Source of the DNA: a virus
Lineage: Duplodnaviria; Heunggongvirae; Uroviricota; Caudoviricetes
Reading direction: 5' to 3' (one strand)
DNA: 64,000 nt
Virus record (IMG/VR): IMGVR_UViG_3300045988_158256
The translations under genes were made by a program, and so were the position numbers. This document shows, one piece after another, positions 1-39,951 of this stretch. Positions within the stretch are counted from its first letter, which is position 1. Each line of letters starts with the position of its first letter. The notes beneath the pieces were generated by a model. That model saw only the letters and a program-made list of their open reading frames with translations. It made no database searches and was not told the origin of the DNA.

Positions 1-17
1 GTGTGCTCTTCCGATCT
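1..17. other. Illumina TruSeq adapter remnant at contig edge
   Basis: First 17 nt are GTGTGCTCTTCCGATCT, the 3' end of the TruSeq adapter/read primer; not biological sequence. Confidence 0.8.
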
Positions 18-20
18 AAG

Positions 21-386
21 ATGTTTTTTTATGTCTTAAAAAACATAATAGAAAGTAACAACACATACAATATCTACCTAGATATAAAAGATACTTTAGG
101 TATTGAAAAAATTGAGAAATTAAGAGGAGTTCTTCACAATGATCGCTATGATTACAATCATGAGTCGATAAACAGAATTCAACATATACGATCTCATGAA
201 GTGCAACAATTGCAGCTAACGGATCTTTTCATTGGTGCGTTAGGCTACGTTCATCGAGGAATGAATAGCAACGCGGGAAAAATCCAAGTCATAAACAGGA
301 TAAAATCACATACAAACAGGGAGTTACTAAAAAGCACTCTTCCAACAGAAAGTAAATTTAATATTTTCGTGTGGGAGGCTCGCTGA
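21..386 (+). CDS. hypothetical protein, AT-rich cassette gene 1 (may be 5'-truncated by contig edge)
   Basis: ORF track 3..386 begins inside the adapter, first genuine ATG at 21; low GC unlike the flanking phage backbone; Q-L-T-D-L-F-I-G-A-L segment is reminiscent of the DUF3800 C-terminal motif (tentative, from memory). Confidence 0.35.
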   Translation: MFFYVLKNIIESNNTYNIYLDIKDTLGIEKIEKLRGVLHNDRYDYNHESINRIQHIRSHEVQQLQLTDLFIGALGYVHRGMNSNAGKIQVINRIKSHTNRELLKSTLPTESKFNIFVWEAR

Positions 387-850
387 TGCTTCAAATGCCA
401 GATTTATTGTACTTCAATGGAAGTTGGCAAGAGTATATAGACGATGTATATGATGTTGTTAGAGAAGATATTTTAATCTCTAATATAACGTTTAAGGGTC
501 TCCCTGTTCGATTACGTTATTCACCGGAATATGATGGGAAAGAGTTCGGATTTTGGCATTTAGTATCAGAGGGAAAAATAGAAGAAGAACGAATACCTGA
601 TCTTGAACGGTGTAAGCGGATCCGCTGGATCGCGCATATGATAAGGAATTATGACCATTGCGATATATCATGTTGGTCTGAAAGACGAGGACCAACTGAA
701 GAGTGGGTAATCTGGAACGAGTGTGAAAACTACGTTGTTGTGCTATCCGCACGTAGAGACTATTGGCTTCTCAAAACAGCCTATGTTGTAACCTATGACA
801 GTAAAATCAGAACACTCAAACAAAGCAGAAAAAGAGCACTTGGGACATAA
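386..850 (+). CDS. hypothetical protein, AT-rich cassette gene 2
   Basis: ATG at 386 overlaps the upstream stop (TGATG) with GGGAGG Shine-Dalgarno 8 nt upstream, so translationally coupled to gene 1; no recognised domain. Confidence 0.4.
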   Translation: MLQMPDLLYFNGSWQEYIDDVYDVVREDILISNITFKGLPVRLRYSPEYDGKEFGFWHLVSEGKIEEERIPDLERCKRIRWIAHMIRNYDHCDISCWSERRGPTEEWVIWNECENYVVVLSARRDYWLLKTAYVVTYDSKIRTLKQSRKRALGT

Positions 851-858
851 AAAAGCTG

Positions 859-889
859 AACCCGACACATATTGCTATGTATCGGGTTC
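859..889 (+). terminator. hairpin downstream of cassette gene 2, possible terminator
   Basis: Inverted repeat aacccga(c)acat / atgtatcgggtt immediately after the stop codon; no strong T-run. Confidence 0.3.
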
Positions 890-1016
890 GATCGCTCTTT
901 CTACGCATGGTAGATGAGTAAGGTAAATCTAACCGATCTACTTTAGCTTTTCAATAGCTAGCTATAACTTTCCGCACATATTCTTCTGATAATTCCAGTA
1001 TGGCGGTTGGGTTTTC

Positions 1017-1313
1017 TTATGCTTTCCTGCGCAGAGGCGCACACTTATTCAGCAATAATAAATGTAATTCTTTGTTATCCCTAAGTATTTCGACACACCA
1101 ATATCGTAACGTGTTCACTTCAAGTGTAGCCAGCACCTTATGTCGAAGTCCTCCCTCCCCTGCACATAACGATGGCCGACATTCTGCTAAGGCACATAAC
1201 CATGTATTGGCATCATAGAGAATCCAATAATGCTCCTCTGAAATAGTTTTGCATCCAATTATTTCGAATCTTCGTTCTATCGTTTCAGGAGAGTATGAAA
1301 AATCAATTTCCAT
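1017..1313 (-). CDS. hypothetical protein
   Basis: 98-aa ORF lying beyond the minus-strand terminator of the virion operon; weak RBS; no recognised domain. Confidence 0.2.
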   Translation of the reverse strand: MEIDFSYSPETIERRFEIIGCKTISEEHYWILYDANTWLCALAECRPSLCAGEGGLRHKVLATLEVNTLRYWCVEILRDNKELHLLLLNKCAPLRRKA

Positions 1314-1352
1314 AATATGCTCAAAATTTCGCTATACCGGCATAATTTAAGC

Positions 1353-1375
1353 ACAAAAAAGCTCCCGTAGGAGCT
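1353..1375 (-). terminator. rho-independent terminator ending the minus-strand virion operon
   Basis: agctcc-cgta-ggagct hairpin followed on the minus strand by a T-run. Confidence 0.6.
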
Positions 1376-1396
1376 TTAAAATACAAGGGGTGACTC

Positions 1397-1906
1397 TTAA
1401 TCCCACTCAATCCAGTTGTAAACGATACGAAGTGACGGGCGCACAGCGGCAGTCACATCTTCGGTACTAAAGTCGATTGCATCACTGTAGATTTTGCAGT
1501 CCAACATTTCAATTGTTGTAGCAGCTTTTGTCACAGCGTTAACCCCGGAAGATTTGGATTCAGGGGTAGCAGCCATCGTGATATCAACATAGTCCTTCGC
1601 CGCAATGCGATCCTTGATGAACTGAAGAATATCGCCTTCGATAGTCTCCACGCACTGGACCTGGATTTCCCCAGAGTTTCGAATTGGTCCGTGCTGGTTG
1701 AACTTCACACCATTCGGACCATAGTCCTCCACATCCTCGCGTGTCATTTCAGGGATTTGCGACGTGCGAACCAGTACGCTGATATCTTCATGGCCTGCAA
1801 AAGTGAGCTGGAATTCAGAAGATACCAGTCGTTCGCCTTTGGCCGCGTTGGCAGTATAGCGGCCCTTAATAAATTTACGGTTTCCCTTAGTGTTATTGTG
1901 CCCCAT
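1397..1906 (-). CDS. virion protein, tail tube-like
   Basis: 169-aa ORF in the operon with sheath-like and head-like genes; size and position fit a tube protein; assignment by synteny only. Confidence 0.4.
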   Translation of the reverse strand: MGHNNTKGNRKFIKGRYTANAAKGERLVSSEFQLTFAGHEDISVLVRTSQIPEMTREDVEDYGPNGVKFNQHGPIRNSGEIQVQCVETIEGDILQFIKDRIAAKDYVDITMAATPESKSSGVNAVTKAATTIEMLDCKIYSDAIDFSTEDVTAAVRPSLRIVYNWIEWD

Positions 1907-1917
1907 ATAAAATCCTT

Positions 1918-2499
1918 TTACTGGAACGCCCGAACAATATCGGAGCTGTTATATATCGAAGAACCGGTCAACTGGAGGTTGACGGTGTTTTTCAGGAAAT
2001 ATCCATTACTGTCCCTTGGCGCATCGAGATCAAAACTTAAGTCCTGGATGGCGACATCGGTGATGTTGATCCGGCGACCAATGTTTAGCGTCACGCGCTC
2101 CGGGATTCGACCACCAACATTGGCCGCTTTTAGTTCCGGGCTAATCATGGCTGTCAACGCGGCGATAGCGCCTGAAACTTCAATGAATGGATTGTTCAAA
2201 GCAATGAAAGTTACAGGCAGCGTGAACGTCGGCGGAGTCCCCCCTTCCCAAACCATTAAGCTATTCCAACGGGCAACCGACGTTGTTTCAGTACCTACTT
2301 GCACAAAACCACCCAGAGCACCAGAAACAGATCCCATGGACATACCGGTAAACGGCGCTTCCCAATTCTGGGCCATGTTCATTGCCGCTCCCTGGCTGAT
2401 ATATCCGGTAACCTGGTACTGAGAGTTCGTTAAAGTAACTTTCAGAAATGGCGATACACCGTCAGCCTGGCTGTAAACCCCATAAGGTATAGGTGCCAT
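1918..2499 (-). CDS. virion-associated hypothetical protein
   Basis: 193-aa ORF tightly packed in the structural operon. Confidence 0.4.
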   Translation of the reverse strand: MAPIPYGVYSQADGVSPFLKVTLTNSQYQVTGYISQGAAMNMAQNWEAPFTGMSMGSVSGALGGFVQVGTETTSVARWNSLMVWEGGTPPTFTLPVTFIALNNPFIEVSGAIAALTAMISPELKAANVGGRIPERVTLNIGRRINITDVAIQDLSFDLDAPRDSNGYFLKNTVNLQLTGSSIYNSSDIVRAFQ

Positions 2500-2534
2500 T
2501 CAAGTTAAAGGCCGGAGTTCTCCGGCCTCCTCCT

Positions 2535-5009: not shown

Positions 5010-6737
5010 TTACTCAGAGTCACCGGCATCAATCGTGTCGCCGCTAATGAAGTTAAGCCCGCCTTTTTTGGCCATTGTCAGCGTTACACGAGTGAAGTAA
5101 TCAGCGCCGTTGCGTGGGTGCATATCGTTGATAGCCGAACCCCACAGCGTGGTACGGTTGACCAGCGCCGGAGTGGTCGGATGCTGGAACGGGATGGCCG
5201 GGACAGCATCACCAGTCACGAAGCCTGCTTTACCCGGATTTTCATCACGGACGTAGCACAGCACATCCATCGAGCTGAACTGAATGTTCTCTGTCGTTAA
5301 GTTCTTACAAATACCAGCAGGTACTTCGTACACTTTCACGTTACCGAACAGGGTACCGATGTAGTGAACATACGGAGTCTGGATATAGTCTTCGGCTGGC
5401 TGGAAGAAATCCTTCGGCAACTGTTTGAAGAAAGATGCTGCATCAGCACCAGCAAACATCCCCATCGCACCAGAAGATTTAACGCGCTCAATAATGTCGC
5501 GATATACAGTCTGGAATTTGCCACGAATGATGGTTGCCCATACATCAAAGGACTGGTTAACCGGCAGAGCGATGTCAAAGGTGTCGGTCGCAAGAGTGCG
5601 CCAGATCATGATGCGAAGACGCAGCATATCCTGTTCATGAGACAGGTATTCCTTCAGGGTGCGGAACTGTAGGGAACCCAGGTCCAGACCAAATTCACGC
5701 TGTGCTTCATACGCCGCCTGTACCGTGTGCTCAGCCGCGATAACGAACTGGCTTGGGAACAGGGTGTATTTCTTCATTTCGTGGTTGATCAGCGGGATCA
5801 GCTCAGGAGCGGCTTCAATATTGATTTCCGTCTCAATTGCGATCTCAGTGCCTTTATCCGGCGCTTTGGAGAACGACAGGGCAATCTGACCAATGTTGTA
5901 GTTCAGAGAGCAGGTAACAGTGATTTGCTCACCAGCAGCATTAGTAAACGAGTGAAGTAGGCTGCCGGAACCGTTATCAACAACAGACTTAATACGGTTA
6001 ACGTAGATATTAGTGCGACCTTTTCGGATTGGTACATTCTGGCCTTCGAAGTCTTCCATCTTGAAGGTTGCGGTTTTGCTGGTGCCATCGGAGCTTGCCA
6101 CCAGCACATAGCGGCGGCGTAACTGGCTGTACACACCGACGGATTGCATGTCCAGAACATCACCAGCAGCATAAGAACCAAAAGAGGAACCTGCCACGTT
6201 AAAGACTTCATAGATGTCGGACTGGTCACGCGTAACCGGAATGAAGGTACACGCATCAGCGGTAGCTGCCCCCAACTGAACAGGCAGGATCATCGCGAGG
6301 AATAAAGGCAGACGCATAACACCGTCAGAAACGCTCATCATCTCTGCTGCGACGGATTCCAGCATCGCTTTATTAGTGGCATCCATGCTATTGCGGGTGG
6401 ACTCAATCAGGCAGTTTTCCAGCGTCTGGTGGCAGGAGGCCAGAATTTCCGGACGCGGCATAGATTTATGTGCTGCGGCGTAGTCAGCCAGTGCACTTGC
6501 CCACGCTGTAGCGATTTGAGCGGTGGCATTATCAGAGATACCCGCAAAAACCGGGTCTTTACGTGCAGCTTCAAGGATAGATGCGGCACGCGCGGCATCA
6601 TCTTTAATGAATTGGTTATCAGTACCGAACTGCGCAGTGCTTGCCCAGCCAAGCACAGCTTTAGAGCGTTTTGCGATATCTGCAATACGATTCTGGTATT
6701 CGCGTAAGTTACTCAATTTACTCTTCCTTAAACACAA
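5010..6737 (-). CDS. major head protein-like (position of P1 gene 23)
   Basis: 575-aa ORF immediately upstream of parS, as recalled for P1 gene 23. Confidence 0.4.
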   Translation of the reverse strand: MCLRKSKLSNLREYQNRIADIAKRSKAVLGWASTAQFGTDNQFIKDDAARAASILEAARKDPVFAGISDNATAQIATAWASALADYAAAHKSMPRPEILASCHQTLENCLIESTRNSMDATNKAMLESVAAEMMSVSDGVMRLPLFLAMILPVQLGAATADACTFIPVTRDQSDIYEVFNVAGSSFGSYAAGDVLDMQSVGVYSQLRRRYVLVASSDGTSKTATFKMEDFEGQNVPIRKGRTNIYVNRIKSVVDNGSGSLLHSFTNAAGEQITVTCSLNYNIGQIALSFSKAPDKGTEIAIETEINIEAAPELIPLINHEMKKYTLFPSQFVIAAEHTVQAAYEAQREFGLDLGSLQFRTLKEYLSHEQDMLRLRIMIWRTLATDTFDIALPVNQSFDVWATIIRGKFQTVYRDIIERVKSSGAMGMFAGADAASFFKQLPKDFFQPAEDYIQTPYVHYIGTLFGNVKVYEVPAGICKNLTTENIQFSSMDVLCYVRDENPGKAGFVTGDAVPAIPFQHPTTPALVNRTTLWGSAINDMHPRNGADYFTRVTLTMAKKGGLNFISGDTIDAGDSE

Positions 6738-6852
6738 GGCACTTGTGTGAATCCCTTTTCGGAAGAGATTTTATTGAAAGTCACTTGTTGACTTTCTCGT
6801 GACAAGCAATTTTTTTATTTTTTTCGGGAGTAGGGGAGGAAGGTAAAATCCA

Positions 6853-6940
6853 AGGTGAAATCGTGGCGATTTCACCTTGAAATTTTAGATAGATTTACTT
6901 TAAAAACAGTTGGTTAATAGTGAAATTTGAATGGCGAAAG
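6853..6940. promoter_or_regulatory. parS: parS partition centromere
   Basis: Heptamer ATTTCAC / GTGAAAT boxes with TGGCGA (TCGCCA) box B at 6855-6876 and 6920-6938 around an AT-rich IHF-like spacer, directly downstream of parB. Confidence 0.65.
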
Positions 6941-6941
6941 T

Positions 6942-7943
6942 TTAAGGCTTCGGCTTTTTATCGAGGCTCTTTCTAAGGATATGCCCAATCATCCTGTCGA
7001 GTTCTTCCTGTAGCTCTTTTGAAAGTCGATTAAACTCATAAGAAAATGCACGGCCTTTCACGCGCTTCCTTGCAAAGCGATCCTTGTCCTCAAATTTCCA
7101 TAATTCAGTAACTACGGACTTATCTTTAGAACCTTTATCCGTGAGTAGTGAGGCTTCCTTTGTTATCAAGCGCAGGATTTTATTTTTAACTTCATCTTCG
7201 GCCATTTCTTCAATGGATAAGATGTCGTTTATTTCCGGGGATATGTTTTGAATAAGCTGATCAAACTCTAAATTCTTGTTCCCCATTTCGTCGCCAACAG
7301 CACAAAGCGTTTTGTAGTCCGAAAAGGTTAATTCCGACTGAACAGGGAAAAGGGCGACTAATTCTTCCGGAGCACTCGCTGCCTGGAGAGCACGCGTGAC
7401 CTTCGCCTGAGACAGCCCTTCTTTGGCTGCAATATCCTTCTGACTCATCCCATCATTTTTCATTCGCATCAAACGCAGACCTATTTCTCGAATGCTGTGC
7501 TGCAATGCTGTCTGAACGTCTTTCGCTAAATTTTGCGCTTCCTGAACGCTGATCTCCTGGTCCGTGACTAAAACCCGCAACCCTACGTTCTCTAAGATGG
7601 CAGAAGCTCGACGCCGGGAACCATCCAAAATTTCAATTTTCCCTGTAGCCCGTCTAACACCTATTGCAGGGTAAAATTGCTGATGCTTAATAGTGCTTCG
7701 GATACTTTTTAATGATTTTGGCGTAAGAGATGCCTGGTCACGCCCGTTGTTATGCTGATCAACAAAGGTATCGCTTTCTACCTGGTTCGGAGGTATTACC
7801 TCTTCAATAAATGTGGCCTGGCGACCAGTTGATAACTTGAATACCTGCTCGACTCGATCGCCAGAGGCTGAAGAACTATCAAATCCGCTTAATATTGAAG
7901 GATTAAGGGTTCGCCCAATTGTTGGTCTGTTTTTCTTTGACAT
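6942..7943 (-). CDS. parB: partition protein ParB
   Basis: 333 aa, same length as P1 ParB; follows parA and precedes parS. Confidence 0.8.
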   Translation of the reverse strand: MSKKNRPTIGRTLNPSILSGFDSSSASGDRVEQVFKLSTGRQATFIEEVIPPNQVESDTFVDQHNNGRDQASLTPKSLKSIRSTIKHQQFYPAIGVRRATGKIEILDGSRRRASAILENVGLRVLVTDQEISVQEAQNLAKDVQTALQHSIREIGLRLMRMKNDGMSQKDIAAKEGLSQAKVTRALQAASAPEELVALFPVQSELTFSDYKTLCAVGDEMGNKNLEFDQLIQNISPEINDILSIEEMAEDEVKNKILRLITKEASLLTDKGSKDKSVVTELWKFEDKDRFARKRVKGRAFSYEFNRLSKELQEELDRMIGHILRKSLDKKPKP

Positions 7944-36675: not shown

Positions 36676-37868
36676 CCACTATAACCAAAGAGCGACTGCT
36701 GACAATCAAGCAGTGGCGCGAAACATACGGACCGGGTAGCAACGTTGTACTGCCAGCAGAAGAAGCGGAAGAACTGGCACGGATTGCTCTGGCATCGCTG
36801 GAAGCAAAACCAATAGGTGCATTCCACATTGCAGAACAGCAAGTTGACGGCACAAGTGACTACCTCAAGGATGGAGAATGGCCTATTGATAATGGAATTA
36901 TTGAGGTCTACGCCGCTCCCCCCGTTCCAGTAGTACCGGAAGAAAAACCAATGCCTAATCCTCTTAGCATGTACGCGGTTGATGCTGTTGCCGCTATTGC
37001 AGAGGTGAGAGGCTGGAACGCCTGCCGCGCCGCCATGCTTCAGTCCGGAAACTTTCGGGAAAATAAGAATTCGTCAACCAATAATTTTCGGGAAATCGCG
37101 GAAACGTCAACCAACTATCCGGTAATTCCTAGTGAAGTGTTGTCCGCAATCCTGAAGGTTGCCAAGATTCGTGCCGATTTCGATGATTTTGACGGTGACA
37201 GGCGAGGTATCGGTGATTGTCTGGATGAGGCTGAGCAAGAGCTTATCGTTACCATTAACAAATATGCCAGTCAGTTGGCAGCAGAACCGATAGCGACTAA
37301 TGACGTTCGAGAGCAAACAGCCGTTCCGCCAGTTCCTGTAATACAGGCTGATGTCGCGCAGGCAATTGAAAAACTCAAACGGAAATTAGTGGAATGCAAT
37401 CGCTATAACTACTGCGCAGATGCAGTTAAGGGCGTTGAGTATGCCTGCCACGCTGCCATGCTTCAGGGTAGCCAACCTGTAAGCCAAACTTACAAGTTTC
37501 CAGTTAATACACCTTGCCAGGATGCGCCAGCCCATATCTGGCTGCAAACAGCTGGAGTATGGCCAGAAGATGGCGAGTTAAGCGAATTAACGTGGTGCAG
37601 CCACAATCAGCACCATGATGACACGCTATATGTTCGAGCTGACTTGGTAAATGGCAATTCTCAGGTAACTCCGGATGGTTGGATAAGCTGTAGTGAGCGA
37701 ATGCCCGCTCAAGATGATTGGATTTTAATTTATTCAAAGCACGGTGAGTATATGGCAGGACAGGTGCAAGGGGAATACGTGGAGTTGAGCGACGGCACTT
37801 TATCCTGGTTAGGGAACGCCTTGTTCTGGATGCTGCTACCAGAACCTCCCCAGGAGGCAGGTCAATGA
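36672..37868 (+). CDS. DUF551-like protein
   Basis: C-terminal WISCSERMP...LFWMLLPEPP resembles the DUF551 signature of lambdoid prophage proteins. Confidence 0.5.
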   Translation: MTTITKERLLTIKQWRETYGPGSNVVLPAEEAEELARIALASLEAKPIGAFHIAEQQVDGTSDYLKDGEWPIDNGIIEVYAAPPVPVVPEEKPMPNPLSMYAVDAVAAIAEVRGWNACRAAMLQSGNFRENKNSSTNNFREIAETSTNYPVIPSEVLSAILKVAKIRADFDDFDGDRRGIGDCLDEAEQELIVTINKYASQLAAEPIATNDVREQTAVPPVPVIQADVAQAIEKLKRKLVECNRYNYCADAVKGVEYACHAAMLQGSQPVSQTYKFPVNTPCQDAPAHIWLQTAGVWPEDGELSELTWCSHNQHHDDTLYVRADLVNGNSQVTPDGWISCSERMPAQDDWILIYSKHGEYMAGQVQGEYVELSDGTLSWLGNALFWMLLPEPPQEAGQ

Positions 37869-37932
37869 GCTGGCCTGAAGCATTCGCAACGGTAGGAATT
37901 GTGATGGCGGCAGCACTGGGTTTGTATTCAAT

Positions 37933-38184
37933 TTGTCGCTGGTGGTAACGATGGGGAAATTAACTTTTGTAGTCGAATTTGAGGATGGTAAAGAGCCACC
38001 TGTTAGCGCCAATCTTGATGTTGCTGGTGGAAGGCTTGTTTCGGTTCTATTTGGTGACTACCGAGATGACTTCTTCCAACCAGAAGAAGTTGATGTAGTG
38101 CGAGAGGCATTAAACGAGTTAAGTGTTGACAACGATGATGCTCATGCGGAAATCATCCAAAAAATGGAACTGCTAACTCACTAA
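37933..38184 (+). CDS. small acidic protein
   Basis: 83-aa ORF (possible start at 37951). Confidence 0.35.
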   Translation: MSLVVTMGKLTFVVEFEDGKEPPVSANLDVAGGRLVSVLFGDYRDDFFQPEEVDVVREALNELSVDNDDAHAEIIQKMELLTH

Positions 38185-38232
38185 ATTATCAATTATGGTG
38201 CTATAACCTACGACACCGAGAGAAAATTTATA

Positions 38233-38355
38233 ATGTCAAAAGTAAATGTTTTGATTTTTTCAGCAATTGTTGGCTTTGGTTTTACTGCCGGAGTGCAGAT
38301 TTATATTACGTGGGAAAAAATCATCAACTACGCATGGAGTTGTTTTATTAAGTGA
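38233..38355 (+). CDS. small hydrophobic peptide (40 aa), AT-rich cassette
   Basis: MSKVNVLIFSAIVGFGFTAGVQIYITWEKIINYAWSCFIK; single transmembrane helix; below ORF-track threshold. Confidence 0.35.
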   Translation: MSKVNVLIFSAIVGFGFTAGVQIYITWEKIINYAWSCFIK

Positions 38356-38362
38356 GGTAAGT

Positions 38363-38656
38363 ATGTGGAGAGGTAATAGTCATGGCAAAAGCCAGATGAT
38401 ACTTACCGAATATCAGTTTGACCATAAAACCAATAAATCACGTTCAGTATATTTGCTTCGGCACAATAGCCGCGTAAGGAATACCGTGCTGGAGCAAAAT
38501 CTGACTGTTGAAATAGATAATTACGGGGGCTTCAAGCCAACAATTTCGCTTGATGATTTTCCTCGTGGTTTAAGCGAAAGAGAAGCAATGCTGAAATTAG
38601 CAGAATGGCTACAAAGATTAAGCATTGCTATTGAAGATAACTGGTCTGAACCTTAA
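38363..38656 (+). CDS. hypothetical protein (97 aa), AT-rich cassette
   Basis: ATG at 38363 with GAGG 8 nt upstream; no domain recognised. Confidence 0.45.
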   Translation: MWRGNSHGKSQMILTEYQFDHKTNKSRSVYLLRHNSRVRNTVLEQNLTVEIDNYGGFKPTISLDDFPRGLSEREAMLKLAEWLQRLSIAIEDNWSEP

Positions 38657-38662
38657 ATTTAT

Positions 38663-39037
38663 ATGATGACACTAAAACATTTTCTTGACCGCCCATTATG
38701 GGCGGCAGCCGCAGGCTATGACTTTAATTATATGGATTGCATGTCTTATACCGCCAATGCATACGACTATTCCTTCAGTCTGCTGCTTAATTCTTTAAGA
38801 ATATTGCCGCAAACAGAAGTTGGAGAGCTTCATTTATGGCTATTGGGCTTTATCGCGGCTGGAGTTGGTATTGCTGTATGGCCTTTTATTTTCTGGCTGG
38901 TGGCTGTTGTAGTGTGGTTTAAGTGCAAGACGTACCGGAGAAAGTATTTCTTAGGTGATGGAATGACTGATATTGCCAAAATGAACATTGAAAAATGGAC
39001 TAAGGAATGTGAAAAGAAATGGCGCAAAAAGAAATGA
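38663..39037 (+). CDS. membrane protein (124 aa), AT-rich cassette
   Basis: Hydrophobic segment LWLLGFIAAGVGIAVWPFIFWLVAVVVWF; K-rich C-terminus. Confidence 0.45.
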   Translation: MMTLKHFLDRPLWAAAAGYDFNYMDCMSYTANAYDYSFSLLLNSLRILPQTEVGELHLWLLGFIAAGVGIAVWPFIFWLVAVVVWFKCKTYRRKYFLGDGMTDIAKMNIEKWTKECEKKWRKKK

Positions 39038-39951
39038 CCAGAATCACTGAAGAGCGTATATCAGAGATTATTTCCCGTATCGAAATGTATGGTCACGGTG
39101 CTGGATATACGGCAGATGAAGTATTGGCACTTGCCCAAATGGCTTTGGCGGCTTGCAAAGATGATAAAAAAATGAAGCTTATCGACTTGTTAGTGAAGGA
39201 GCTGCCTAAGTGTGGCGGGTGGCCTGATGGAATGAGTTATTGTTACCTACCCAGTGTCAATTTAATGGCACCATGCGCGACTTTTGCTTTTGGCTCAGAC
39301 CACAAAAAAGACACTTTCTTTGGGCGCAATTTTTGTTGTGAGATTGAGCTTCCAATTGGTGACCTTGATAGCGATGAATACCAGTCAGTTGTCACTCGCG
39401 AACAATACGAATCAGCTCTCATAGCGTCGCAGAAAGTCGAGTTCAATGGTGATGAACTTGAAAGTAAGACTTACAGGTTGGATTTTGGGCAATGGCTGGA
39501 ACAGCAACGCGGGAAAATCGATGTGGACTGTGGTTGTGTGTCCACTGAAACATTCATGCACTGGCTGCGGGTAGCTTACGAGGCTGGCAACTATCCGGAT
39601 ATTCCGGATAGTTCGGTGCCAGCGCCAGGAAAGGGCGTCACCGGTGAACGTATCCGCATTAAGCCGCATGTTTATCGCGAACTGGTTAACCGTCTCCACG
39701 ATACAGCGATCAAGTGTGCTGGCACCCAGCAATTACGAGAAAGAATTAGCCGTGTTTTGGGCGACGTTATTACGCCATATCATCATAAACAAGCCGAGAA
39801 AAGCGGTCTGGAAAGGTGTCATCTTGAGGCAGCATTAAACATTAAGCCGGGGCATACGCTTGGCATTATTGATGCACTGTTGGTTCATAAGATGGCCAGG
39901 GCTTTATTGTCGTTGGTGGACGCTGGTGATACAAGCGAGGGTGAAGTATGA
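39019..39951 (+). CDS. hypothetical protein
   Basis: 310-aa ORF in operon. Confidence 0.4.
   Translation: MAQKEMTRITEERISEIISRIEMYGHGAGYTADEVLALAQMALAACKDDKKMKLIDLLVKELPKCGGWPDGMSYCYLPSVNLMAPCATFAFGSDHKKDTFFGRNFCCEIELPIGDLDSDEYQSVVTREQYESALIASQKVEFNGDELESKTYRLDFGQWLEQQRGKIDVDCGCVSTETFMHWLRVAYEAGNYPDIPDSSVPAPGKGVTGERIRIKPHVYRELVNRLHDTAIKCAGTQQLRERISRVLGDVITPYHHKQAEKSGLERCHLEAALNIKPGHTLGIIDALLVHKMARALLSLVDAGDTSEGEV

What the first reader, a model, noticed from the sequence alone, without database searches (positions are those of the whole stretch)
18..1345. AT-rich, translationally coupled two-gene cassette at the contig start, opposite in orientation to the tail operon
Positions 21-850 hold two plus-strand ORFs with visibly lower GC than the backbone, joined by a TGATG overlap with a GGGAGG RBS, and followed by a hairpin. 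The minus-strand virion operon ends at a clean terminator (1353-1375), so the cassette is a separate unit. Gene 1 has a QLTDLFIGAL segment that resembles the DUF3800 C-terminal motif (tentative); gene 2 has no recognisable domain. Composition, coupling and placement fit a horizontally acquired moron such as an abortive-infection or exclusion pair. The contig edge and adapter prevent seeing the upstream boundary, so a chimeric join is also possible.
Basis: partly seen in the sequence, partly recalled or inferred. Interest (0 to 1): 0.6.

Follow-up and report, generated by a model that had tools for sequence, protein, structure and literature searches.

The report
P1 rlfA-rlfB accessory cassette, truncated
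The AT-rich two-gene unit at the contig start is the already-annotated rlfA-rlfB cassette of a P1-like phage-plasmid, cut by the contig end; comparison with other genomes suggests it is a mobile candidate anti-phage nuclease pair, not a replication function, but nobody has tested this.

Summary
Window 1-17 is an Illumina adapter tail. Window 18-1400 is 100% identical and colinear with phage JL22 and about 34 plasmids, and 96.7% identical to P1 and P7. This rules out a chimeric join.

- **Gene 1 (18-386):** only codons 113-234 of rlfA (DUF3800, RNase H2-like fold). The ATG at 21 is an internal Met.
- **Gene 2 (386-850):** complete rlfB.
- **Missed gene:** pmgF lies on the minus strand at 1017-1313.

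The region has the lowest GC in the 64 kb (0.379 against 0.484). It is the right part of a swappable cassette. One boundary lies inside C1 operator Op55 just after repL; the other is at window 1354/1355, beside the bplB terminator. Only about 21% of repL-bearing plasmids carry rlfAB; others hold hokD, Ail/Lom or unknown genes there.

RlfA and RlfB match PADLOC candidate defence system PDC-M04. Outside P1 the pair was adjacent in 78 of 78 evaluable loci across many phyla, almost always with overlapping stop and start codons. In 33 of 76 loci it lies within 6 kb of type I restriction-modification genes. It never sits next to repL.

The best reading is a mobile two-nuclease defence or exclusion module. 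The genes are known; the function is untested.

The parts
1..17 (.). Illumina adapter tail (GTGTGCTCTTCCGATCT) at the contig end; not biological sequence
   Evidence: Sequence read. All database matches start at window position 17. Adapter identity comes from my own knowledge of TruSeq adapters.
18..386 (+). 3' fragment of rlfA (codons 113-234 plus stop). It encodes the C-terminal half of a DUF3800, RNase H2-like nuclease. It keeps D134, D137, Q178 and D181. It lacks the N-terminal D12-E13 dyad, the promoter and C1 operator Op55.
112..140 (+). Weak sigma-70-like site inside rlfA, coincident with the 'predicted P1rlfB' promoter of the P1 record. Unverified.
   Evidence: The number of such sites equals the shuffle expectation.
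373..378 (+). Shine-Dalgarno GGGAGG for rlfB, inside the end of rlfA
   Evidence: 7 nt upstream of the ATG at 386.
384..388 (+). TGATG stop/start overlap of rlfA and rlfB (translational coupling)
   Evidence: An overlap or a gap of at most 8 nt is present in 74 of 76 related loci.
386..850 (+). rlfB, complete, 154 aa. Partner protein of the pair (PDC-M04B). It has an invariant His58 and the signature F56-W57-H58...R69..D72..R75..R78..W81. It possibly has a RelE/colicin-D-like fold.
858..889 (.). 14-bp-stem hairpin between the convergent rlfB and pmgF. The T-run is on the minus-strand side. Probable terminator, possibly acting in both directions.
1017..1313 (-). pmgF, 98 aa, an orphan gene of P1-like elements and part of the same swappable cassette. 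Its N-terminal 65 aa are 43% identical to the 198-aa protein at the same position in other cassette types.
   Evidence: Non-essential by CRISPRi.
1355..1377 (-). Right boundary of the variable cassette (homology to all cassette types resumes at 1355), followed by the intrinsic terminator of bplB (hairpin 1358-1377)
1397..1906 (-). bplB, the last conserved gene of the minus-strand tail/baseplate operon (context, not part of the cassette)

Best explanation
Window 18-1354 is the right-hand 1.34 kb of the roughly 1.83-kb rlfA-rlfB/pmgF accessory cassette of a P1-like phage-plasmid. Its left end is cut off by the contig end.

RlfA is a metal-dependent nuclease with an RNase H2-type fold and an intact D-E...D...D carboxylate set. 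RlfB is a small partner that always accompanies it. RlfB has an invariant His and several invariant Arg residues, and probably a RelE/colicin-D-like fold.

The pair is a mobile two-gene module, equal to PADLOC candidate PDC-M04. P1-like elements captured it into a cargo slot between repL and the tail operon. Its most likely role is nuclease-based defence or exclusion against competing phages or mobile DNA, of the abortive-infection or toxin-like kind. It is probably not involved in P1 lytic replication.

**Shown:**
- the identity and boundaries of the cassette;
- the fold of RlfA;
- the constant pairing and translational coupling of the two genes;
- the association with restriction-modification genes and genomic islands.

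**Inferred:**
- the two proteins form a complex;
- one of them senses infection, probably the faster-evolving RlfB;
- nuclease activity on RNA or RNA/DNA hybrids stops phage growth.
For: **Identity**
- The region is 100% identical to JL22 and about 34 plasmids, and 96.7% to P1 and P7, with conserved gene order.

**Cargo slot**
- repL is found in 516 plasmids, the rlfAB region in 109.
- The left break lies inside operator Op55, 14 nt after repL. The right break is at window 1355 in six of six alternative types.
- Alternative cargos are hokD, Ail/Lom and unknown genes.
- The region is listed as a variable region in PMC9603915 and PMC6906374.
- It has the lowest GC in the window.

**Not needed for lytic growth**
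- CRISPRi knock-down of rlfA, rlfB and pmgF is scored non-essential (PMC10695390).

**Defence candidate**
- PDC-M04A matches at E 2.2e-95 and PDC-M04B at E 3.5e-51.

**Pairing**
- An RlfA-like gene lies directly upstream on the same strand in 78 of 78 evaluable loci from many phyla.
- Stop and start overlap or lie within 8 nt in 74 of 76 loci.

**Genomic context**
- 33 of 76 loci have type I restriction-modification genes within 6 kb, 32 of them on the same strand. About 14 have the order hsdM-hsdS-[A-B]-hsdR.
- Of 124 immediate neighbours, 17-18 are HsdS and about 10 are HsdR.
- Other settings are a P4-like satellite beside RhuM and SymE, an HsdR-MazE-PIN-A-B-HsdM-HsdS operon, a fusion to a DrmMI-like methylase next to Cas13a, a prophage end, and integrase islands.
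- None of these loci has repL.

**Enzymology**
- D12, E13, D134 and D181 are kept in 75-78 of 78 partner genes.
- H58 is invariant in 150 of 150 and 80 of 80 sequences.
Against: - I found no experimental test of PDC-M04, RlfA or RlfB in the searchable literature. The defence role rests on genomic association alone.
- The P1 record places C1 operator Op55 upstream, and a preprint reports induction during lytic infection. The genes may therefore be silent in lysogens, which fits poorly with classical prophage-encoded exclusion.
- The copy in this window is truncated, so nothing can be said about its own integrity on the left side.
Confidence: 0.6

Rival explanations
1. Replication-linked function, as in the historical annotation. 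RlfA would act as an RNase H that processes the transcript or R-loop at oriL inside repL to prime P1 lytic replication, with RlfB as its cofactor.
For: - The pair lies directly downstream of repL/oriL, behind a C1 operator.
- RlfA has an RNase H2-like fold.
- The genes are induced together with repL early in infection.
- PHROG and RefSeq label RlfB 'replication protein'.
Against: - Only about 21% of repL-bearing plasmids have rlfAB.
- CRISPRi scores the genes non-essential.
- None of the roughly 90 non-P1 loci examined pairs them with repL. They sit in restriction-modification operons and islands instead.
- The 'replication protein' label has no supporting domain hit.
Confidence: 0.1
2. Toxin-antitoxin or addiction module that stabilises the phage-plasmid by killing cells that lose it. 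One protein would be a nuclease toxin and the other its neutraliser. Any anti-phage effect would be secondary.
For: - The same slot carries the hokD toxin in other P1-like plasmids.
- The two genes are small and tightly coupled.
- RlfB has fold hits to RelE/HigB/YoeB-type toxins.
- An accessory DUF3800 gene scored as essential, like antitoxins, in Legionella Tn-seq.
- Neighbours often include MazE-PIN and SymE.
Against: - RlfA (234 aa, catalytic tetrad conserved across phyla) does not look like a labile antitoxin, and no DNA-binding domain was detected.
- P1 already has phd-doc.
- The strong link to type I restriction-modification operons points to defence rather than plasmid maintenance.
- The Legionella gene's subfamily and neighbours are unknown.
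Confidence: 0.2
3. Phage offence or counter-defence. The pair would be made early in the lytic cycle to degrade host nucleic acids or to disarm host immunity.
For: C1-controlled position and early induction in P1vir infection.
Against: - Most homologues are in bacterial chromosomes inside defence loci, not in phages. Only 19 IMG/VR contigs carry the pair, and about 16 of them are P1-like.
- The genes are non-essential for plaque formation on K-12.
Confidence: 0.07
4. Assembly artefact: a chimeric join of foreign AT-rich DNA to the P1 tail operon.
For: Adapter sequence at the contig end and an abrupt GC change.
Against: Window 17-2500 is colinear at 99-100% identity with complete replicons, and 109 plasmids plus 8 phage records show the same junction.
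Confidence: 0.01

Closest known systems
Bacteriophage P1 rlfA-rlfB (P7 rapA-rapB), with pmgF
   Same: Same genes. The DNA is 96.7% identical to P1 and P7 and 100% to P1-like phage JL22. The gene order rlfA-rlfB, pmgF, bplB is the same.
   Different: The window copy lacks rlfA codons 1-112 and everything to the left, because the contig ends there.
PADLOC phage-defence candidate PDC-M04 (A = DUF3800, B = RlfB-like)
   Same: Both proteins match the A and B models strongly and are adjacent.
   Different: PDC-M04 is a bioinformatic candidate. I found no experimental validation or mechanism.
PrrC anticodon nuclease in the EcoprrI type I restriction-modification locus (restriction-linked abortive infection). 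Comparison from my own knowledge.
   Same: Many RlfAB relatives occupy the same kind of position, inserted after hsdS and often before hsdR on the same strand. RlfB has weak fold similarity to the tRNA-cleaving toxin colicin D.
   Different: There is no sequence relationship to PrrC and no ATPase domain. RlfAB has two proteins. The P1 copy is not next to restriction-modification genes. No activity has been shown.
RelE/ParE-superfamily toxins and colicin D / CdiA-CT RNases (BECR fold)
RNase HII / RNase H2A
   Different: Sequence identity is about 10%. RlfA has extra conserved motifs (FEIKWTKVS, FYYKM, QLxDLxIGA, KFNxFxW). The substrate is unknown.
Other DUF3800 contexts: retron type VII, TPR-DUF3800 next to Cas12a2/Cas12a3, and the DUF3800-I to -XI RNA motifs
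   Same: Same domain family, again in immunity-linked loci.
   Different: No reverse transcriptase, no CRISPR genes and no Rfam DUF3800 RNA motif lie near rlfAB or its relatives. Here the partner is a protein, RlfB.

Membership tests
P1 rlfA-rlfB cassette | Near-identical DNA colinear with P1-like genomes, in the order rlfA, rlfB, pmgF (opposite strand), bplB | tested here: met
   100% identity to JL22, 96.7% to P1 and P7.
P1 rlfA-rlfB cassette | Left context: repL, operator Op55 and the rlfA 5' half | not testable with these tools
   The contig ends at window 17, and the 5' half is absent from the window.
Pfam DUF3800 (PF12686) | Score above the gathering cut-off | tested here: met
   27.1 bits against 21 on the 122-aa fragment. 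Full-length relatives carry PF12686.
Pfam DUF3800 (PF12686) | C-terminal QxxD motif | tested here: met
   Q178-L-T-D181 is encoded in the window. It is conserved in 78 of 78 relatives.
Pfam DUF3800 (PF12686) | N-terminal DE motif | tested here: inconclusive
   Not encoded in the window because of the truncation. It is present (D12-E13) in the 100%-identical JL22 gene and in 75 of 78 relatives.
RNase H2-like fold | Structural similarity to RNase HII/H2A with a D-E...D...D carboxylate set | tested here: met
PADLOC PDC-M04 | Adjacent genes matching the PDC-M04A and PDC-M04B models | tested here: met
   E 2.2e-95 and E 3.5e-51.
Anti-phage defence system (functional class) | Reduces phage plating or causes abortive infection when expressed | not testable with these tools
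   Only association evidence is available. No published test was found.
RelE/colicin D (BECR) RNases | Significant fold or profile match and an equivalent active site | tested here: inconclusive
Type II toxin-antitoxin module | One product is toxic, the other neutralises it, and the operon regulates itself | not testable with these tools
   The only lead is an essential accessory DUF3800 gene in Legionella Tn-seq.
Restriction-linked abortive-infection genes (PrrC-like placement) | Embedded in a type I hsd operon | tested here: not met
   The window and P1 copy lies between repL and bplB. The feature is met in 33 of 76 relatives.
Retron type VII | DUF3800 beside or fused to a retron reverse transcriptase and its non-coding RNA | tested here: not met
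   No reverse transcriptase is annotated in the P1 or JL22 locus. There are no significant Rfam retron or RT-motif hits; the only one is RT-6 at E 0.35, about 2.5 kb upstream.
DUF3800-associated RNA motifs (Rfam) | A DUF3800-I to -XI RNA motif next to the gene | tested here: not met
   No hit in JL22 locus L002, in window 1-2000, or in 20 related loci.

The most novel reading that the evidence does not exclude
RlfA-RlfB is a working immune module of a kind not yet described: an RNase H2-type nuclease that always partners with a small RelE/colicin-D-like protein. It commonly rides inside type I restriction-modification operons as a second line of defence, conceptually like PrrC, and P1-like phage-plasmids have borrowed it for competition between phages. 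P1 would then be a ready-made genetic model for the whole DUF3800 family, which also appears beside retrons, beside Cas12a2/a3, and beside eleven unexplained RNA motifs.
Probability: 0.35. Interest if true: 0.6.

Novelty: already known. Interest (0 to 1): 0.3.

Why it matters
- P1 is a laboratory workhorse, and P1-like phage-plasmids spread resistance genes in Enterobacteria. About 2% of complete E. coli genomes carry this exact cassette: 121 of 5,426, almost always on plasmids.
- The labels in circulation ('replication protein', 'oxidoreductase', 'possibly associated with lytic replication') have no supporting evidence.
- The comparative picture points instead to a candidate defence module. 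P1 offers an easy system in which to test it.
- A positive result would give a first function to DUF3800, a widespread RNase H-like family repeatedly seen in immunity loci.
- For this contig, the practical message is that gene 1 is truncated by the assembly and there is no chimera.

Tried and rejected
- **RNA partner:** Rfam searches for a DUF3800-type RNA found nothing in JL22 locus L002, window 1-2000 or 20 related loci. They returned only C4 RNA upstream and tRNA/tmRNA genes next to islands.
- **RlfB family assignment:** Pfam and NCBIfam give no family for RlfB. A scan of 150 diverse relatives against Pfam gave no recurring hit. PDB sequence-profile searches with 33- and 150-sequence profiles gave nothing meaningful. 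Foldseek against the PDB gave nothing significant. The afdb50 library was unavailable.
- **Longer RlfB relatives:** those with N-terminal extensions (P0195, P0235, P0283 and others) have no recognisable extra domain.
- **pmgF:** homologues are found only in P1-like elements and there is no Pfam hit.
- **Literature access:** the P1 genome paper (J Bacteriol 2004) could not be opened. Statements on Op55 and PrlfA therefore come from the GenBank record. One bioRxiv paper mentioning DUF3800 was also not retrievable.
- **Search limits:** the 150-sequence alignment was too diverse for a locus scan, so the 33-sequence alignment was used instead.
- **Chimera hypothesis:** rejected.
- **Circular wrap-around:** I checked whether the missing rlfA half sits elsewhere in the window. 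It does not.
Full report
**1. Checking the observation**

The first 17 bases (GTGTGCTCTTCCGATCT) are the tail of an Illumina adapter; I recognise this from my own knowledge. Every database match starts at position 17.

Two plus-strand ORFs follow.
- One is open from the contig end to a TGA at 384-386.
- The other runs from the ATG at 386 to the TAA at 848-850.

- The stop and start codons overlap as TGATG (384-388).
- GGGAGG lies at 373-378.
- A 14-bp-stem hairpin lies at 858-889.
- An 8-bp G+C hairpin with a T-run on the minus strand lies at 1358-1377, right after the bplB stop codon.
- GC is 0.336 for gene 1, 0.391 for gene 2 and 0.379 for 18-1345. That last value is lower than any other 1328-nt window in the 64 kb (mean 0.484, sd 0.028).

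The observation therefore stands, with three corrections.
- Gene 1 is a fragment.
- There is a third gene on the minus strand at 1017-1313.
- The T-run of the 858-889 hairpin lies on the minus-strand side.

**2. What the region is**

Window 17-1400 is 100% identical to phage JL22 and to about 34 plasmids of E. coli and E. albertii. It is 96.7% identical to P1 and P7. The annotated genes under the match are rlfA, rlfB, pmgF and bplB (rapA and rapB in P7).

- rlfA is 234 codons long. Window position 18 corresponds to codon 113, so the ATG at 21 is internal Met114.
- The promoter region and C1 operator Op55 lie beyond the contig end.
- The missing half is not elsewhere in the window.
- Colinearity continues to at least window 2500. 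A chimeric join is therefore excluded.

**3. A swappable cargo slot**

repL occurs in 516 PLSDB plasmids, but the rlfAB region occurs in only 109.

- In the other plasmids, homology stops 14 nt after the repL stop codon, inside operator Op55 (ATTGCTCTAAT|...).
- Homology resumes exactly at window 1355 in six of six alternative types. That point is 3 nt before the bplB terminator hairpin.

The slot holds several alternative contents:
- an 81-aa ORF plus hokD;
- the 81-aa ORF plus a 198-aa minus-strand ORF;
- Ail/Lom plus that 198-aa ORF.

pmgF is 43% identical to the N-terminus of the 198-aa protein.

Published surveys already describe this region as variable. One calls rlfA-rlfB-pmgF one of eight variable regions of P1-like phage-plasmids (PMC9603915). 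Another reports its replacement in pSvP1 and pTZ20_1P (PMC6906374).

CRISPRi scored rlfA, rlfB and pmgF as non-essential for P1 plaque formation (PMC10695390).

In complete E. coli genomes the cassette occurs in 121 of 5,426 genomes. There are 122 places on plasmids and 5 on chromosomes.

**4. The proteins**

*RlfA*
- The family is very well conserved across phyla. Mean column identity is 66% in 40 sequences, and the search returned 5,364 hits.
- The adjacent D12-E13 dyad, D134/D137 and D181 are present in 75-78 of 78 RlfB-linked relatives.
- This agrees with earlier modelling of DUF3800 (PMC7736814, PMC10910872).

*RlfB*
- It has no Pfam or NCBIfam family.
- It does match PADLOC PDC-M04B, and PHROG 16230, which is labelled 'replication protein' without supporting evidence.
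- The family has 1,754 clusters at E <= 1e-3 among 1.8 billion representative proteins.
- His58 is invariant. F56, W57, R69, D72, R75, R78, W81 and W97 are nearly invariant.
- Its model (pLDDT 91.8) has a helical N-terminal part, a four-stranded antiparallel sheet and a C-terminal helix.
- Foldseek finds nothing significant. I therefore treat the RelE/colicin-D-like fold as probable, not established.

*pmgF*
- It has homologues only in P1-like elements.

**5. The pair outside P1**

A scan of one genome per species found 411 genomes that encode an RlfB relative. The best 80 loci span Proteobacteria, Planctomycetota, Nitrospirota, Saccharibacteria, Chloroflexota, Cyanobacteria, Verrucomicrobiota, Acidobacteriota, Bacteroidota and others.

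*Pairing and coupling*
- In 78 of 78 loci with upstream sequence available, an RlfA-like gene lies directly upstream on the same strand.
- In 74 of 76 loci the stop and start codons overlap or lie within 8 nt. The commonest forms are ATGA (26 loci) and TGATG or TAATG (17 loci).
- RlfA is more conserved than RlfB in 73 of 77 loci. Median identity to P1 is 50% against 42%.

*Link to restriction-modification*
- 33 of 76 loci have type I restriction-modification genes within 6 kb, and 32 of those are on the same strand.
- The usual orders are hsdM-hsdS-[A-B]-hsdR (about 14 loci) and hsdR-hsdM-hsdS-[A-B] (9 loci).
- Among 124 immediate neighbours, 17-18 are HsdS and about 10 are HsdR. A few carry AbiEii-like ATPase, SIR2 or SymE domains.

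*Individual contexts*
- A P4-like satellite, where the pair follows RhuM and precedes SymE. RhuM equals PDC-S05, which was shown to protect in PMC12881386.
- An HsdR-MazE-PIN-A-B-HsdM-HsdS operon.
- A DrmMI-like methylase fused to an RlfA-like domain and followed by RlfB, with a DpdE/DrmD-like helicase just upstream and Cas13a genes nearby.
- Integrase islands, a prophage end next to smpB, and a resolvase/HNH element.

*Other points*
- None of these loci has repL.
- In IMG/VR only 19 viral contigs carry the pair, and about 16 of them are P1-like. The module is therefore mainly bacterial and looks captured by P1.
- No DUF3800-type RNA motif accompanies it.

**6. How it most likely works**

I commit to the following reading, with confidence about 0.6 for the class of function and about 0.25 for the mechanistic details. 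RlfA and RlfB are made in fixed proportion through translational coupling and act together as a nuclease-based conflict module.

- RlfA is the conserved catalytic engine, with RNase H2-type two-metal chemistry on RNA/DNA hybrids or structured nucleic acid.
- RlfB evolves faster. It carries an invariant His/Arg cluster. It is either the sensor or regulator, or a second nuclease that acts on RNA.
- Activation during infection would halt phage development, possibly at the cost of the cell.
- The frequent position after hsdS recalls prrC in the EcoprrI locus (my own knowledge). It suggests a back-up that fires when restriction is disabled.

*Shown:* identity, boundaries, fold of RlfA, constant pairing, coupling and neighbourhood statistics.

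*Inferred:* complex formation, substrates, trigger and the defence phenotype.

*Against this reading:* I found no experiment. In addition, the P1 record places a C1 operator upstream and the genes are induced in lytic growth. Expression in lysogens is therefore uncertain.

*Rivals:*
- a toxin-antitoxin or addiction module (0.2). hokD sits in the same slot, RlfB has RelE-like fold hits, and an accessory DUF3800 gene scored as essential in Legionella Tn-seq;
- the historical replication-linked role (0.1);
- phage counter-defence (0.07);
- assembly artefact (0.01).

**7. Comparison with what is known, and novelty**

The feature is the known P1 rlfA-rlfB cassette. It is a member of the un-validated PADLOC candidate PDC-M04.

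- It shares a domain, but not an architecture, with retron type VII and with Cas12a2/a3-associated TPR-DUF3800 proteins.
- It is not homologous to PrrC, although its relatives occupy a PrrC-like position.
- For this window nothing is new, so I rate it 'already known' with modest interest.
- What remains open is the function of a widespread family, and P1 makes that testable.

Noticed in passing
window 1-17: The contig starts with an untrimmed Illumina adapter tail. This creates a false GTG/ATG-initiated ORF start for the truncated rlfA.
   Followed up: yes
window 1017-1313 (minus strand): pmgF is an orphan 98-aa gene of P1-like elements. Its N-terminal 65 aa are 43% identical to a 198-aa protein that takes its place beside bplB in other cassette types. 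Function unknown; non-essential by CRISPRi.
   Followed up: partly
L002 3501-3517 (JL22), outside the window: The left recombination junction of the cargo slot lies inside C1 operator Op55. All cassette types keep ATTGCTCTAAT and diverge immediately after it.
   Followed up: partly
L018 3321-8471: A 1556-aa DrmMI/type IIG-like methyltransferase carries a C-terminal RlfA-like DUF3800 domain in which the first catalytic Asp is replaced by Asn. A separate RlfB homologue follows it. A DpdE/DrmD-like helicase lies just upstream and Cas13a genes are nearby.
   Followed up: partly
L003-L005 7988-11328: In Citrobacter and in a P4-like satellite the pair sits between a RhuM gene and a SymE toxin gene. 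RhuM equals PDC-S05, reported as protective in PMC12881386.
   Followed up: no
window 6600-7200: A second low-GC stretch (0.36-0.39) lies at the junction between the major capsid gene and parB (plasmid partition region).
   Followed up: partly
window 37600-39600: Another low-GC island (about 0.40) of small hypothetical genes. It is shared only partly with other P1-like phages, and parts of it match Stx-converting lambdoid phages (EaA-like region). Probably another variable cargo region.
   Followed up: no
RlfB annotations in public records: RlfB is variously named 'oxidoreductase', 'replication protein' or 'hypothetical protein' in RefSeq and PHROGs. No domain evidence supports the first two names.
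   Followed up: yes
L026, L063, L073, L099: Several RlfAB loci lie next to tRNA or tmRNA genes, which are typical integration sites of genomic islands.
   Followed up: no
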